From a virus (taxonomy: Duplodnaviria; Heunggongvirae; Uroviricota; Caudoviricetes), in the IMG/VR virus record IMGVR_UViG_2880395615_000002: a stretch of DNA of 64,000 nt; one strand, written 5' to 3'. Of the stretch, positions 9,001 to 15,000 are shown one piece after another. The position numbers are program-made. Within the stretch, counting starts at the first letter, position 1. Each line of letters begins with the position of its first letter.

Positions 9001-12000
9001 CCCAGCGTATTACTGTCGGGATTATCCGGGCGGTTTACCCCGTATCTCGCCATCTGGTTATCCTGCGCCATCTGCGCTGTACGGAGACTGGAAGTGGCAA
9101 GGCCTCCCACCCGTGCAAGCTGTGCATTCATCAGACTGTTGTTCTCCCCAAGGTCAGCCAGCCTTGCTACACGGGGTAAATATCTGGTGCGCCAGTCGTC
9201 GTATTGCTGGCGGGTCAGCGCTGCGGATGTCTGCCAGTCCCCCTGAGGGCGGGCTGCTCCGGTATAACCGTATCTTGCAAGTGTTTCGTATTTACCGTAC
9301 TCCATAATCACAGTCTCCAGTTCTGAGCCTGATGCTGAATGGCATTAGCGCCGGTGCCAGGTGTTTTAGCACCGCCACTTCCTCCGCTACCGCCAGCCTT
9401 ATGCATCGCATATGCACCTGCCGCACCCAGACCAGCGCCAACAAGAGAGGCTCGCCCCTGCTGTTTCGTAAACGCCGCCTGTGCATCCGATTTAGCTTTT
9501 GCCAGACTGCTGTCTGCCAGAGAGTTAAAACTCTGTAACGCATCCGCCTTCTGACCAGAACCGAGAGCAGCAACATCCTGTAGCCCGGCAACATACTTAT
9601 CTGCCTGCGATACCTGCCCCCGTGTGGTTGTGTCAATCTGCCCGGTTACCTGGTCACTCTGGTTCGCATTCATTACCGCATTAAAACGACCACTGGATGG
9701 GTCAACGCCGGACTGAGCAAGATTACCCGCAAGCTCCTTCCGTGCTTCGCCAAACTGTTTCTGATACCCCAGATTTGTGGTGCCAGCAATATTGTCGTAC
9801 TGCTGCTCACTGTTCAGGTCATCGACCTTTTCCATGAAGTTATCTTCAGCCGGGCGGAGGATATTTTTGTAATCCTGCCACCCTTTCCAGGCCACTTCTT
9901 CCTGTGCTATTTGCGCTGCTGTTGGTTTTACTTTGGTATCACCACCGCCTTTACTTCCACCCATAATGGCCCCCTGGATAACAAAAAACCCTGCCGGAGC
10001 AGGGTCAGAATGTGAATTACAATGTTGGTTTAAACACAATGATGAAAACTGTAGCAGTCAGACCGCTATCCTGAACACCATGAAGCCATCCTCATCATCC
10101 GGCATTCGCTCAAAGCCCAGTCGTTTTCCCAGCCGGATAAATCCCCGCCTTGCCGTATGGAACTCAGCCCAGCGTCCGCCAGCCAGATGGGTTAATGTCT
10201 TCACCTCCGGCAGGTAACGCTCAACGCTGTTACTCCCCGTACACACGCCCAGCAACACCAGAACATAAGGGATACCATCAGCACTGAGCACAGAACGCAG
10301 CACCAAAAAGCCATCAGGTGCCTCAAAACAAAACGCCTGCTTTTTAAGGCAGGCGTCTTTAACTTCATTCATAAATTCAGGGTTGCGGGAATTTCTCACA
10401 ACACGCTGCATATACCAGAGAATTTTATCGTTCATTCTCTCACCTGAAACGGGTGCCATATCGGCTGAACCTCAGCAACCAGTTGACGGGGACTCTCGTC
10501 CCCGTCGCGGTTTTCCTACTGCTTACACTGTAAGAACGCCGCAAACTCCGCTCCCCACAAATTCAGCCGGAACTCACACAGTGAACCGTGCAACATCCAG
10601 ATGGTGAAGATAACCGTCATGCAAATTGTGACGGTGATAAGCGATTTTTGCGACATAGCGCTTGACTCCTTTTACAGAGAGGCGCTAACCTTCTACTTGC
10701 TTAAGGTACGAAGTGTTAGGGCCTCGGGTTAACGTTAAGTTGACTCGGGGCCTTTCCACATCAGGCCTTCAGGTTCACCCTCCAGCCATCAGCCGAAAGG
10801 CACCCACGCATAATTTACGGTTTTTGCCCTGTACGGGCAATAAAAAACCCGCCATCACAGCGGGTAGTAAACGGTTACCGGATACAGGTCAGAATTTCAG
10901 GCCAATGCCAGCAGTAACGCCACTCGTGCGCCAGTCGCCAGAGCCGGAACCTTCGTAAGCCACATCCAGTGTAACACTCTCATTCAGGTTAAACTGTGCA
11001 CCTGCAGCCCACGCAAGGGAGGTTTTTTTCGTGCTGTTGCTTTCAGAAAATCCGCCACTACTGTTAATATTGTCCTTAATTTTCAGGTCAGCGCTAACTT
11101 TAGCAACGCCCATCCCTGCCATCGCATATAAACTCATGTACTGATTAACCCGCCATGAAGGCCCCGCTAACAGACTCCAGTAATTCGCCCTGATATCCGT
11201 TCCGGCAGAAGCTGCCGGATTCTTAATCTTCCTGCTATGATCGGCTGACTGCACATCAATAAATGTCTGTGAGTTAGTGAGAGAACGCGTCCATGTAAAA
11301 GAGGTGATAACGCCAAAATCATCCGTTATCTCGTAGCGATACCTGATATTAATGCCCTGTGGATTTTTATCCTTGCCTTCATATCCACTGACCCGACCAT
11401 CTGTATATTCGCCCAATGAAGAAAAGTAGTTTCTGTTGATGAAATGACTGAAAGTCTCCCTGTTATGAGCAGTCGCATCCTTTACAAAATCCTTCAGTCC
11501 CGGAAACTGAAAGTGCGCATACCCCAGAGAAATTGTATGCTCTCCTTCTGCTGCATGTGCAGATAAATTTACACAGGCAATCCCGGAGATTGCACACACA
11601 ACCAGTGTTGCTATACTCTTCATTTAAGATATCCTGTATTCAGATAACACGCTAAACTTTTTAATAATACATCTTTTTAGACATTTTAAATGAATATTAA
11701 AGACTCGCTTCAACTAATCATATACTGATGTATTAATAACCAGGACCTTATCTATATACGGCTTTCGAATATCCCATGTTGCACCACCGGAATAATGCTC
11801 ACAGGAATATATTTTATTTCCTGTAGCACCAGTGGATGTGGTATAAATCGGTCGATCATAAGGAGTTCTTTTCCAGTTATAATACCCGACCAGTGCAGGC
11901 ATGATTGCGCATGGATATCCAAGGTCCTTTTCAAATTTGATATCAACAGGTATTAACTTCGCGTCAAGCAGCATCATTTCGCCATGATAAATCATCTCAC

Positions 12001-15000
12001 CGTCCGGGTTATACATGGCGATACCATACTCAGAAGGTGGAGTAACCATATTCGCGAAAGCATAAACCGTCGTAACACCAGGGTTCGTTCCCCTGACAAT
12101 TACATGAAGCCTTAGTGCATGATATCCATCAATCTGTTCATGCGTGTACATGACATCGGCCTTCTTCTCTGTTCTGATAAAGAAAAAACAACTTTTGCCT
12201 GACGGGATTGATGTTTTAAAAAAAGACTTTTCAGTCGCCGGTATGGTGCCTTTGTTGATCAGACACTGCGGCGTAAAACCTGGACTTATCCATACGCTGC
12301 CATCCGGCTTCATAATGCTCAAACCGTACATAACACTTATCCCCAGAATGTATAAATATAAGATCCCATACCCTGCTCAAGATTCGACCACGTCACCGTA
12401 TTGTCATTAATGGTTATCTTCGGTACTTTCCGATCCGCAAATACATTATTCCAGGGAAATAAACAACATACAGCCTGCAATGATTTCCCGTCGGGTTTAT
12501 TAGTGTACGTCTTTGAGCCAGACTCCGCTGTAAATCTGTCCAGGAAAAATACTGGAGTCAGCACGCCCGTAACATTAACGTTATTTCTGTTATAAATGGC
12601 AAAACCGTATTCCAATACTCACCTCCTGATCAGCGTAATCTGCCTATGCGAACAGCCAGTCGTCCATTCTGGTCATAAACCTCAATTTTATCATTGCGGA
12701 TCACCAGTCCTACATTCTGATTAGAGTAACGAATTGTCAGTTGCCCTTGTGACGTAACACTGAAAAGGCCTCCAATATTCAGGTTACCCTGAGAATCAAC
12801 CTGAAAGTTTCCGTTCTGAATAACGGCACTCCGGATAACTGGCGAAGTGATACTTACCCCGGCTTTTACCTCATCCGCCACAACCTTCCGCGACACCAGT
12901 GTTTCAATCACCGCGTCATAAATCATCGCTTTCGGGATCACTACCTTGCCACCTGATACCGCAAACGGATAGGCTGTGTTATCCGGATTATTCGGGTCAA
13001 AGACAAACAACTGCGACGCAGAAATTGCAACCTGACTTACAGGCCTGCCTTCACTGTCTTTTCCGGCGACAATCCCGATCCCCGCAGTGATACCATCAAC
13101 TCCCGCTTTTTTTGACCACATTGCAAGAAAAGCTTCACCGCCTTCTTTATCCAATTTAGTGATGCGCTTGTCGACCTCATTAAGCGATTCACTGGTTGAC
13201 GAATCCAGTGTGCTAATGCGGGTTTCAATACCACCAATCGTTCTTGTCGTTTCTTCCCTGAGAGTCCCTACAACTTCGGTTGTCTTAATTGCAGCATCCT
13301 TTACAGCCTGCCCCTGCGCGTTTTTTATTTCTTTACGCAGCTCGGACACAACCGGCGACTTTGCAGCCTCATCGCGGATCTGGTCAATGATGGCCTTCAC
13401 GCCGATCTGTGTTTGTGCCTGAGTGCCTTTTTCAGCATTCCATGGACCTTTCACTCCTGCCGCGTTAACAAAACGTATCCAGTAAAATCCCGACCAGCCA
13501 GGGTCAACCGGATCGCCGTAAACCTGCCCCGGCGTCGTGGCAACCAGCACTGCATCAGCAAGGTCATCCTCCGTACCCCGCCAGATTTCAGTCAGTGAAT
13601 GTCCGCGATAATTAGGCATATCCCATTCAAGAAGAACCGAGCCAAATCCACCGGTCGCCTTAAAATTCAGCGGTTTTGTGGGAAAATCAACAGTCATTAA
13701 AGTACTGTCAATCTCAATACCCGGATTCAGTGCATATGAGGCACCACCCGATGTTCGACGCCGGGCGAGTTTAAGACCAACCAGTTCCTCACGGGTCACA
13801 AATGCGTGACGTCCGTCACCACGCTGCCCGGTGCCAATTTCCATATTCTCCACAACAGTGGATAAATCCTTCCCCGCACGCCACGGTTTTCTGGTCATAC
13901 CGGCATCTCCGACATTGATGTACTCAGGGTTATTCGTTCCACCTGCCCGAATCCGGATACCATCACCTGCCAGTTTTGCCCGGTTGCTGCCGGAAGTCTC
14001 ACCACACTTCCCTTAAACGTACCCGGCGCAAAATGAATCACAGGAACATCATCAGCCATAATGGTGATCCCCACCCGCTCAGGCGCCGGAGATTTCACCC
14101 TGATACAGGAAAAAGAGGTTCTTTCAGGTAATGAAAAAATTTTTGAATGCCACCTTATCGTGGAGGGCAGAGCCCCCCCGGCAAGCACTGACATTTTGTC
14201 TCCTGTCACCACGCGCATCATATCTTTCGCGAGATCAACCCATGCGCAGTCAAACGGTGTACTGAGATAACGGATATCCATGTTCACCGGACTGAATACA
14301 AACACATCCTGCTTACCATCCGGTTTCGTGTAACAGGCAATGTATTCACCACGCCAGGGATAAGCCACAATGGAGGCCGGATTAAACTGACTCTGCCACT
14401 GTTCCGGTGAAACAATCTGTTCCGTCGCCAGCGCGACATTACCGTTTGCATCAACAGACACCAGGCCATTTGTTCCTGCATACAGCACAAAACCCTCCAT
14501 CGCAACCATACTCCGCCTGCTCAGACACGCCTGCATTGAAGGGATTTTGGAACCAGAAATTGTGGACGGTGATACCCCACTGAACAAATAAGGCTCCCCC
14601 TTTGTCGCCACCACCAGTGACGTTCCCAGCGGACAGATAGCTACAATATCTTCTGCCGTCGTGTGACGATTCACTTCCGGCCATGCATACGGCAGATACG
14701 CTTCCGAAAACATCACTTCATTACCGGCAAACCCGGCGGCAATACCGTTAGCCATCAGGCAAAGGCCTGTCATATTCTCTGGCGGCGGCAGGTAATCCCA
14801 TGTCGCCAGGGAAGGCCCAAGGTTTTTCGCCGGTATTTTGTCCGTGTAACTGAGCACGGATGCATCCAGTTCAGCCACAAGTAAAAAATCCGCCTCCCCT
14901 CCACCTGATGCAGAGCGATAAATCCGGCGACGTTTAATACTGGCATTCTGCAATGGCACCGGAGCCAGCGTCAGTTGTACCGCAGTTCCCGGAGTACGGA

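What the first reader, a model, noticed from the sequence alone, without database searches (positions are those of the whole stretch)
11714..12615. AT-rich pair of ORFs (92 and 205 codons) between the tail genes and lom, possibly one split gene
The two ORFs are separated by only 5 nt, share short Y-N-x-D-G-like motifs and are clearly more AT-rich than the flanking structural genes. The slot between tail-fibre genes and lom is a classic moron site. I could not assign a function.
Basis: seen in the sequence. Interest (0 to 1): 0.4.

Follow-up and report, generated by a model that had tools for sequence, protein, structure and literature searches.

The report
Two-piece receptor-binding tip of Stx phage
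The two AT-rich ORFs are real, separately translated genes of a 933W/phi24B-type Shiga-toxin phage that most likely form the small receptor-binding cap on its central tail needle; they match one single-chain protein in other phages but are not a broken gene, and recent papers already propose this role.

Summary
Two minus-strand ORFs (12337-12615, 92 aa, TTG start; 11714-12331, 205 aa) lie 5 nt apart, at 41-42% GC against 50-52% in the neighbouring tail genes. The window is a 933W/Sp5/phi24B-type Stx phage, and this stretch is 100% identical to phi24B gp55/gp54 (933W L0126/L0127, Sp5 ORF72/73).

Both ORFs are under strong purifying selection (dN/dS 0.05-0.08). Each has its own Shine-Dalgarno site. 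The stop-restart junction is kept in podoviruses, Drexlerviridae and Nonagvirus, so this is not a frameshifted pseudogene.

The "split gene" idea is right in an evolutionary sense. ORF1, ORF2 N-half and ORF2 C-half align colinearly (E 2e-8, 1e-15, 2e-9) with single ~315-aa proteins encoded next to J-like genes, such as Pantoea phage Vid5 gp23.

Published work reports gp54 in phi24B virions and extra density at the needle tip. Against an essential role, Sp5 deletions of either gene are not among the genes found essential for infecting K-12. The moron at this site is lom, not this pair.

Verdict: already known, function proposed but unproven. Interest is modest.

The parts
12337..12615 (-). ORF1, 92 aa, TTG start. 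Equals 933W L0126, Sp5 ORF72/ECs1234 and phi24B gp55 (vb_24B_41). It is the small beta-rich subunit and is homologous to the N-terminal ~80 residues of single-chain ~315-aa relatives.
   Evidence: One search lists the ORF. PHROG 557, E 1.7e-35; hhalign against the fused family, probability 95.9%, E 5.4e-9. E 2e-8, colinear only; dN/dS 0.08; identical to the phi24B sequence.
12622..12627 (-). Shine-Dalgarno AGGAGG, 6 nt upstream of the TTG start of ORF1. It supports the 92-aa start over the 75-aa start annotated in 933W and phi24B.
   Evidence: Searches show the sequence GATCAGGAGGTGAGTATTG. Searches show the N-terminus MEYGFAIYN conserved in homologues.
12332..12345 (-). Stop-restart junction TGG GGA TAA GTGTT(ATG). 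The last ORF1 codons (W-G) double as the GGGGA Shine-Dalgarno site of ORF2. The gap is 5 nt.
   Evidence: The same arrangement (TGGGGG-TAA/TGA, 2-5 nt, ATG) is seen in L003-L006, L011 and L012.
11714..12331 (-). ORF2, 205 aa. Equals 933W L0127, Sp5 ORF73/ECs1235 and phi24B gp54 (vb_24B_42). It is a two-beta-sandwich 'hand-like' protein and the candidate receptor-binding subunit.
12630..13898 (-). L0125 / Sp5 ORF71 / phi24B gp56. This is the trimeric central tail needle with a J-like Phage_Tail_Tip region, and the presumed docking partner of ORF1/ORF2.
   Evidence: residues 138-421, up to the very C-terminus, are similar to the J proteins of phages that carry the split module (E 7e-8 to 7e-6), with no hit to the Oekolampad J protein. 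Searches give the literature: the gene is essential and forms the needle.
13895..15598 (-). L0124 / Sp5 ORF70 / phi24B gp57. This is the hexameric tail nozzle that holds the needle. It is context, not part of the module.
   Evidence: PHROG 511. (literature).
10889..11623 (-). lom (Ail/Lom outer-membrane protein). This is the actual moron at this site, separated from ORF2 by a 90-nt stretch of about 32-35% GC.
   Evidence: Pfam Ail_Lom, E 7e-33; terminator-like hairpin at 10865-10847 just after the gene; lom is expressed in phi24B lysogens independently of induction.

Best explanation

ORF2 is the receptor-binding body. It consists of two beta-sandwich domains, and by analogy with its solved relative its variable loops would contact an outer-membrane beta-barrel protein of the host. 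ORF1 corresponds to the N-terminal domain of single-chain relatives. It most likely acts as the adaptor that joins ORF2 to the needle tip.

The two cistrons are read from the late tail operon and are translationally coupled: the last ORF1 codons form the SD of ORF2. The cassette moves horizontally together with the tip of the J-like gene, which explains its lower GC.

Shown:
- both ORFs are real genes under purifying selection;
- they are colinearly homologous to fused ~315-aa proteins;
- the ORF2 model matches the fold of a solved LptD-binding RBP;
- the pair is always next to J-like genes;
- literature reports gp54 in virions and an extra density at the needle tip.

Inferred:
- ORF1 and ORF2 form a heterodimer;
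- they dock on the needle;
- they bind a receptor;
- the receptor's identity. BamA is the published candidate. The closest characterised siphovirus locus is linked to BtuB.
For: Identity of the locus: the region is 100% identical to phi24B, 933W and Sp5.

Families: ORF1 matches PHROG 557 and ORF2 matches PHROG 425.

Selection: dN/dS is 0.05-0.08 for both ORFs.

Synteny: homologous ~92 aa + ~204 aa pairs always lie beside the J-like gene.
- Warwickvirus tonn.
- Nonagvirus BRET.
- Metagenomic loci L003 and L004.

Receptor link: FritzSarasin, whose ORF2-like gene is 98.5% identical to that of tonn, uses BtuB.

Fused relatives: they align colinearly with ORF1, ORF2 N-half and ORF2 C-half. Vid5 gp23 overlaps the stop of the J-like gene on the same strand.

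Docking partner: the L0125 C-terminus resembles the J termini of phages that carry this module.

Literature:
- Matusiak 2025 modelled the same two phi24B proteins as partners of the J-like spike.
- The phi24B cryo-EM preprint found gp54 in the virion proteome and a globular density at the needle tip.
Against: Sp5 mutants with in-frame deletions of ORF72 or ORF73 were built, and neither is among the nine genes essential for plaques or lysogeny on K-12 MG1655. The module is therefore not indispensable for infection in the laboratory. I could not see the quantitative values in that paper's Fig. 1B.

A lineage of Stx2a phages carries a stop at codon 186 of ORF2.

gp55 (ORF1) was not detected in phi24B virions. 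The fused homologue gp23 was not among the 11 virion proteins found in Vid5.

There is no sequence-level similarity to the Oekolampad RBP.

The AF2 models rest on shallow alignments (pLDDT 77 and 68). Adding ORF1 did not extend the structural match.

No binding has been shown for any receptor.
Confidence: 0.65

Rival explanations
1. The proteins are assembly or accessory factors of the needle. For example, ORF1 could be a chaperone or cap needed for folding or stability of the L0125 tip, and ORF2 a structural decoration. They would not be receptor binders. Receptor recognition would reside in the needle beta-prism or in the lateral fibres.
For: gp55 was not detected in virions. Deleting either gene does not abolish infectivity. 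Small genes following fibre genes are often chaperones (general knowledge). Matusiak 2025 also raised a structural or chaperone-like role.
Against: ORF1 is homologous to a covalently attached N-terminal domain of the fused relatives. The ORF2 fold matches a protein shown experimentally to bind its receptor directly. Allelic variants of this locus track receptor specificity in small siphoviruses.
Confidence: 0.17
2. The pair is a moron or lysogenic-conversion cargo: AT-rich genes inserted next to lom and expressed from the prophage to change the host surface.
For: The GC is lower than in the flanking genes. The pair is adjacent to lom. Database labels read 'outer membrane protein' and 'membrane associated protein'.
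Against: There is no signal peptide, lipobox or hydrophobic segment (maximum KD19 0.83). No promoter or terminator brackets the pair, whereas lom has a terminator-like site. There are no PADLOC or Pfam hits. The pair is conserved next to J in virulent phages that have no lysogeny. It was not among the lysogen-expressed phi24B genes, while lom was, although that study was not exhaustive. The 'membrane' label traces back to an old free-text note in the phi24B record.
Confidence: 0.05
3. The pair is a recently broken single gene: a frameshift or nonsense pseudogene, or an assembly error.
For: The gap is 5 nt, the ORFs are in adjacent frames, and single-chain relatives exist. One database protein (P0014) reads through as a fusion.
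Against: dN/dS is 0.05-0.08 in both parts. The sequence is identical in more than 100 independent phage records, and the region occurs in 412 complete E. coli genomes. The junction and both SD sites are conserved in lineages only 45-62% identical in protein. P0014 is a single cluster member with frameshifts at both ends.
Confidence: 0.03
4. The proteins mediate superinfection exclusion by masking the receptor, like Cor, Llp or Rtp45.
For: RBP loci of small siphoviruses usually include an exclusion gene.
Against: Known exclusion proteins at these loci are small lipoproteins. Such a lipoprotein (LTGC lipobox) exists as a third, unrelated gene in tonn and L003 but is absent here. ORF1 and ORF2 have no export signal.
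Confidence: 0.03

Closest known systems
phi24B gp55/gp54 (vb_24B_41/42), 933W L0126/L0127, Sp5 ORF72/ORF73
   Same: The DNA is identical over 1100 bp. These are the same genes. The literature proposes a gp54/gp55 heterodimer at the needle tip as the RBP.
   Different: Nothing differs in sequence. 933W and phi24B annotate the small ORF as 75 aa, whereas the evidence here favours the 92-aa TTG start.
PHROG 557 + PHROG 425 pair in the gpJ-adjacent 'bona fide RBP locus' of Drexlerviridae (Warwickvirus tonn, FritzSarasin/Bas04, BtuB-dependent), Nonagvirus (BRET, JenP1/2) and Dhillonvirus JLBYU60 (FhuA)
   Same: The arrangement is the same: ~92 aa + ~204 aa in two cistrons, 2-5 nt apart, ending in FWG-stop-ATG. 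Protein identity is 44-62%. The pair lies next to a J-like gene with a related C-terminus.
   Different: In the siphoviruses the pair is convergent with J and sometimes preceded by a lipoprotein gene. Here it is co-directional with the needle gene in a podovirus, has no lipoprotein partner, and is followed by lom. The receptor is probably different.
Single-chain ~315-aa relatives (Pantoea phage Vid5 gp23; metagenomic P0066, P0074, P0114 and others)
   Same: Three-part colinear homology: ORF1 to part 1, ORF2 N-half to part 2, ORF2 C-half to part 3. They are encoded directly after the J-like gene.
   Different: They are one polypeptide. Identity is about 25-30%. Their function is untested.
LptD-binding RBP of Oekolampad/Rtp44 (PDB 9RPT; PNAS 2025)
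   Different: No sequence similarity is detectable by HMM or profile methods. It is a single chain. It has a cognate exclusion lipoprotein. Its receptor, LptD, has been demonstrated.
T5 pb5
   Same: The concept is the same: a separate monomeric RBP attached non-covalently to the tip of a trimeric central fibre, binding an outer-membrane barrel.

Membership tests
PHROG 557/425 two-gene RBP module of J-like tail tips | Profile match of both proteins | tested here: met
   ORF1 matches phrog_557 at E 1.7e-35 (residues 1-92 of a 100-position profile). ORF2 matches phrog_425 at E 4e-81 (full length).
PHROG 557/425 two-gene RBP module of J-like tail tips | Two adjacent cistrons with a conserved FWG-stop/restart junction | tested here: met
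   the gap is 5 nt here and in L011 and L012, and 2 nt in L003-L006. TGGGG(G/A) precedes the ATG in all of them.
PHROG 557/425 two-gene RBP module of J-like tail tips | Encoded next to a J-like tail-tip gene with a compatible C-terminus | tested here: met
   One search finds Phage_Tail_Tip in L0125. BLASTP of L0125 138-421 against the J C-termini of L004, BRET and tonn gives E 7e-8 to 7e-6, running to the last residues.
PHROG 557/425 two-gene RBP module of J-like tail tips | Presence in the virion at the tail tip | not testable with these tools
   Literature only. gp54 was detected by MS at low abundance, gp55 was not detected, and an unassigned density sits at the needle tip.
PHROG 557/425 two-gene RBP module of J-like tail tips | Binding of a defined outer-membrane receptor | not testable with these tools
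   No experiment exists for this allele. Related alleles correlate with BtuB and FhuA. BamA is the proposed receptor for phi24B.
Oekolampad/Rtp44-type LptD RBP (PDB 9RPT) | Two-beta-sandwich RBP fold | tested here: met
Oekolampad/Rtp44-type LptD RBP (PDB 9RPT) | Detectable sequence homology | tested here: not met
   there are no PDB hits with the family profiles; hhalign probability is below 1%.
Oekolampad/Rtp44-type LptD RBP (PDB 9RPT) | Single polypeptide of about 310-320 aa | tested here: not met
   Here the protein is split into 92 + 205 aa. Fused intermediates exist in other phages.
Oekolampad/Rtp44-type LptD RBP (PDB 9RPT) | Adjacent cognate superinfection-exclusion lipoprotein | tested here: not met
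   There is no lipobox ORF in or beside the module. Only 90 nt separate ORF2 from lom. A lipoprotein is present in tonn and L003 and in Oekolampad.
Phage moron (lambda lom/bor type) | Own promoter and terminator, independent of late transcription | tested here: not met
   no minus-strand promoter-like or terminator-like site brackets 11714-12615. This is a consensus scan only. SD-coupled starts follow the needle gene.
Phage moron (lambda lom/bor type) | Product acts on or in the host envelope (export signal) | tested here: not met
   there is no hydrophobic segment (maximum KD19 0.82-0.83). The N-termini MEYGFAIYN and MYGLSIMKPDG are not signal peptides.
Phage moron (lambda lom/bor type) | Atypical base composition | tested here: met
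   41-42% GC against 50-52% in the flanking genes. Homologous cassettes are also below the local GC in virulent phages, so this fits a mobile RBP cassette equally well.
Frameshifted pseudogene | Relaxed selection and an unstable junction | tested here: not met
   dN/dS is 0.05-0.08 and the junction is conserved across families.

The most novel reading that the evidence does not exclude
The 'hand-like' RBPs linked to BtuB, FhuA and BamA and the LptD-binding RBPs of small siphoviruses, recently described as unrelated families, would be one ancient three-domain superfamily. Its N-terminal adaptor domain would have been split off, or fused on, more than once. In Stx podoviruses the module would be a dispensable second entry device at the needle tip, so that these phages have two routes of host recognition. 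That would reconcile the RBP model with the viability of Sp5 mutants lacking ORF72 or ORF73, and with the truncated ORF2 (stop at codon 186) carried by part of the Stx2a phages.
Probability: 0.25. Interest if true: 0.55.

Novelty: already known. Interest (0 to 1): 0.33.

Why it matters
Which protein of the short-tailed Shiga-toxin phages recognises the host has been unsettled since BamA was proposed as the receptor in 2007. The answer governs how stx genes spread to new E. coli strains.

This pair is the current best candidate. The analysis adds three points to that debate:
- a link, by predicted fold, to an experimentally solved receptor-binding protein;
- an explanation of the two-ORF layout as a fission or fusion at a domain boundary;
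- published deletion data that argue against the module being the sole, essential receptor binder, which the recent structural papers checked here do not discuss.

The analysis also shows that the database labels 'outer membrane protein' and 'membrane associated protein' are unfounded.

Tried and rejected
- Pfam, NCBIfam and PADLOC scans of both ORFs found nothing.
- Direct BLASTP and hhalign of ORF1 against ORF2, and of the two ORF2 halves against each other, found only the ~14-residue N-terminal motif. There is no domain-level repeat.
- Sequence searches of the PDB with the ORF2 and fused-family profiles gave no relevant hit. hhalign of the Oekolampad RBP against all three profiles gave probability below 1%. 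The link to 9RPT therefore rests on the predicted fold only.
- I first guessed that the ~315-aa hits were the LptD RBPs. That was rejected: tblastn with P0066 found Vid5 and Pectobacterium phages, not Rtp or AugustePiccard.
- I considered programmed -1 frameshifting that would fuse ORF1 to ORF2, because ORF2 is in the -1 frame and that frame is open for about 8 codons upstream. By eye there is no canonical X XXY YYZ slippery heptamer in the conserved YIYTFWG codons. The only read-through protein (P0014) is a singleton with other frameshifts.
- I looked for virion proteomics of the fused homologue. Vid5 gp23 was not among the 11 proteins detected.
- I tested whether the Nonagvirus phages with an 'unmatched' RBP allele in the BASEL paper (JenK1, HdK1, HdsG1) carry the 933W-like module. 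The 25 listed hits of 278 show JenP1, JenP2, BRET and ~108-kb phages, and none of those three. No receptor inference came from this.

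
Full report
WHAT IS THERE

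The window is a short-tailed Shiga-toxin phage of the 933W / VT2-Sakai (Sp5) / phi24B type (Sepvirinae), read in reverse orientation. The 1.1 kb around the finding is 100% identical to more than 100 phage records and to phi24B. It occurs in 412 of 5426 complete E. coli genomes.

Both ORFs are on the minus strand:
- ORF1: 12337-12615, 92 aa, TTG start. It equals 933W L0126, Sp5 ORF72/ECs1234 and phi24B gp55.
- ORF2: 11714-12331, 205 aa. It equals L0127, ORF73/ECs1235 and gp54.

Upstream lie two genes that are essential for tail formation in Sp5. L0124 (13895-15598) forms the nozzle in phi24B. L0125 (12630-13898) forms the trimeric central needle and has a J-like Phage_Tail_Tip region. Downstream is lom (10889-11623). 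Further tail and ejection genes follow lom, so lom sits inside the structural operon.

CHECKING THE OBSERVATION

The junction reads TTC TGG GGA TAA GTGTT ATG, a 5-nt gap, with ORF2 in the -1 frame.

GC is 40.9% for ORF1 and 42.2% for ORF2, against 49.7% and 51.6% for the two tail genes and 48.0% for the window. The dip is real but not extreme: it is at the 16th percentile of 902-bp windows.

It covers only about 14-20 residues, and profile comparison does not support homology of whole domains.

REAL GENES, NOT A BROKEN ONE

Against Sepvirinae variants of 89-91% nucleotide identity, dN/dS is 0.077-0.084 for ORF1 and 0.052-0.065 for ORF2.

Each cistron has its own ribosome-binding site. AGGAGG lies 6 nt before the TTG of ORF1. 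GGGGA, formed by the last two ORF1 codons, lies before the ATG of ORF2.

In lineages whose synonymous sites are saturated, with proteins 45-62% identical, the same architecture persists. These include Nonagvirus BRET, Warwickvirus tonn and two metagenomic siphovirus contigs. In all of them a ~92-aa protein ends in YIYTFWG, followed by a stop, 2-5 nt and ATG-TAY-GG.

The conserved MEYGFAIYN N-terminus and the SD site show that the 75-aa annotation of L0126/gp55 starts too late.

THE 'SPLIT GENE' IDEA

An exhaustive profile search with the ORF2 family found about ten proteins of 309-325 aa in which the ORF2-like part begins at residue ~95-110. Their N-terminal ~80 residues are homologous to ORF1 (hhalign probability 95.9%, E 5.4e-9).

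I cut the alignments into parts. Only the colinear pairs are significant:
- ORF1 to part 1: E 2e-8.
- ORF2 N-half to part 2: E 1.4e-15.
- ORF2 C-half to part 3: E 2.2e-9.
- All cross pairs have probability below 14%.

A fused example in a cultured phage is Pantoea phage Vid5 gp23. Its start overlaps the stop of the J-like gp22 on the same strand. Pectobacterium phage Koroua belongs to the 'fused-like' sequence subfamily but is again split at the same boundary, into a 94-aa ORF and an overlapping restart.

So the pair and the single-chain form are two states of one three-domain protein, and the boundary has been cut or joined more than once. I cannot tell the direction of the change.

WHAT KIND OF PROTEIN

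Neither protein has a signal peptide, lipobox or hydrophobic segment. The labels 'outer membrane protein' and 'membrane associated protein' in PHROGs and RefSeq go back to a free-text note in the phi24B record.

No sequence similarity to it is detectable, so I treat this as fold-level kinship only.

BFVD hits show the fold in uncharacterised proteins of many phages of Gram-negative hosts.

CONTEXT IN OTHER PHAGES

The ~92 + ~204 aa pair occupies the 'bona fide RBP locus' next to gpJ. Maffei et al. and a 2026 preprint found that this locus tracks terminal-receptor specificity in Drexlerviridae, Dhillonvirus and Queuovirinae.

The Warwickvirus allele is 44% identical to ORF2. FritzSarasin (Bas04) carries it at 98.5% identity to tonn, and that phage depends on BtuB. 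There the pair is preceded by an unrelated lipoprotein gene (LTGC lipobox), a likely exclusion factor. This gene is absent from 933W, BRET and L004.

The C-terminal ~280 residues of the needle protein L0125, up to the last residue, resemble the C-termini of the J proteins of exactly these phages (E 7e-8 to 7e-6). They do not resemble the Oekolampad J protein. This fits a tip that co-travels with its binding partner.

In every phage examined except Oekolampad, the cassette is below the local GC. That is expected for a horizontally exchanged module, and it explains the AT-richness without invoking a moron.

WHAT THE LITERATURE ALREADY SAYS

Matusiak et al. 2025 modelled the same two phi24B proteins, an 'Ig-like' 11-kDa protein and a 'hand-like' 21-kDa protein, as missing receptor-binding partners of the J-like spike and docked them on BamA in silico.

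A 2026 cryo-EM and proteomics preprint on phi24B reports several findings. gp56 forms a flexible needle, and a small asymmetric density sits at its tip. gp54 is present in virions at low abundance, whereas gp55 was not detected. The authors suggest a gp54/gp55 heterodimer as the BamA-binding RBP.

Neither 'Mondal' nor 'LptD/Oekolampad' occurs in the text of that preprint. In the Sp5 deletion study (Mondal et al. 2016), ORF72 and ORF73 were each removed by in-frame deletion and are not among the nine genes required for plaques or lysogeny on K-12 MG1655. I could only read the text and primer tables, not the quantitative figure.

In addition, a lineage of Stx2a phages (for example LC616037) has a stop at ORF2 codon 186.

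MOST LIKELY MECHANISM (confidence about 0.65)

The two proteins are made from the late operon, translationally coupled, and assemble as a heterodimeric cap on the needle tip. ORF1 is the adaptor, equivalent to the N-terminal domain of the single-chain forms. ORF2 is the body whose loops bind an outer-membrane barrel protein.

The steps shown are gene reality, homologies, fold, synteny and, from literature, virion presence of gp54. The inferred steps are heterodimer formation, docking, receptor binding and receptor identity.

Because deletion is tolerated, the module is probably an accessory or alternative recognition device rather than the only one.

RIVALS

- An assembly or structural accessory role is the main alternative (about 0.17).
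- The moron reading is weak. lom is the moron: it has a terminator-like site right after it and is expressed in lysogens independently of induction.
- A pseudogene and superinfection exclusion are each unlikely, for the reasons given above.

NOVELTY AND VERDICT

The genes and the proposed role are already in the literature for identical sequences, so I class the finding as already known, with the function still unproven. The incremental points here are the fission/fusion relationship, the fold match to a solved RBP-receptor complex, the corrected ORF1 start, and the conflict with essentiality data. Interest is modest (0.33).

Noticed in passing
L012:580-1200 (LC616037.1, Stx2a phage Stx2_4151; corresponds to window 11714-12331): In the ~89% nucleotide-identity lineage of Stx2a phages, the ORF2 homologue has an in-frame stop at codon 186 (…SGGAT*DIRKPYIDKVLVINSSIYD). 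This removes the conserved C-terminal strand. It is either a natural knock-out or a truncated variant of the candidate RBP.
   Followed up: partly
window 12564-12615 (5' end of ORF1); L001:6738-6965; L010:13878-14105: 933W L0126 and phi24B vb_24B_41/gp55 are annotated as 75 aa. The TTG 17 codons upstream, with an AGGAGG SD and a conserved MEYGFAIYN N-terminus, is the likely start. A proteomics search against the short form would miss N-terminal peptides.
   Followed up: yes
L005:4451-4720 (tonn_65) and L003:117-392: In the BtuB-type loci a third small gene encodes a lipoprotein (…LTGC lipobox) just upstream of the ORF1-like gene. It is unrelated to ORF1 and is probably the cognate superinfection-exclusion factor. 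It is absent from the Stx phage, BRET and L004.
   Followed up: partly
window 10847-10865 and 11624-11713: lom is followed by a terminator-like hairpin (ACCCGCTGTGATGGCGGGT + T-run). It is preceded by a 90-nt stretch of about 32-35% GC with no consensus sigma-70 promoter on its strand in the scan. Literature says lom is expressed in phi24B lysogens independently of induction.
   Followed up: partly
window 16550-16999: GC rises to 65-68% with a strong negative AT skew. By coordinates this lies in the collagen-like (Gly-X-Y) shaft of the lateral tail-fibre gene L0121/gp61.
   Followed up: no
L009:4962-5246 (Pectobacterium phage Koroua, minus strand): A 94-aa ORF made almost entirely of GDGSGYG-type repeats sits just after the RBP module.
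   Followed up: no
H193-H196 (Escherichia phages CMS-2020a, Cyrano, PhiR41_1; ~108 kb): The BRET/JenP-type allele of the ORF2 family (about 80% identical to BRET and about 60% to 933W) also occurs in ~108-kb phages. The cassette therefore crosses very different phage backbones.
   Followed up: no
PHROG 557 / PHROG 425 and RefSeq product names under window 11714-12615: The product names 'outer membrane protein' and 'membrane associated protein' are propagated annotations without support. The proteins have no export signal or membrane segment.
   Followed up: yes
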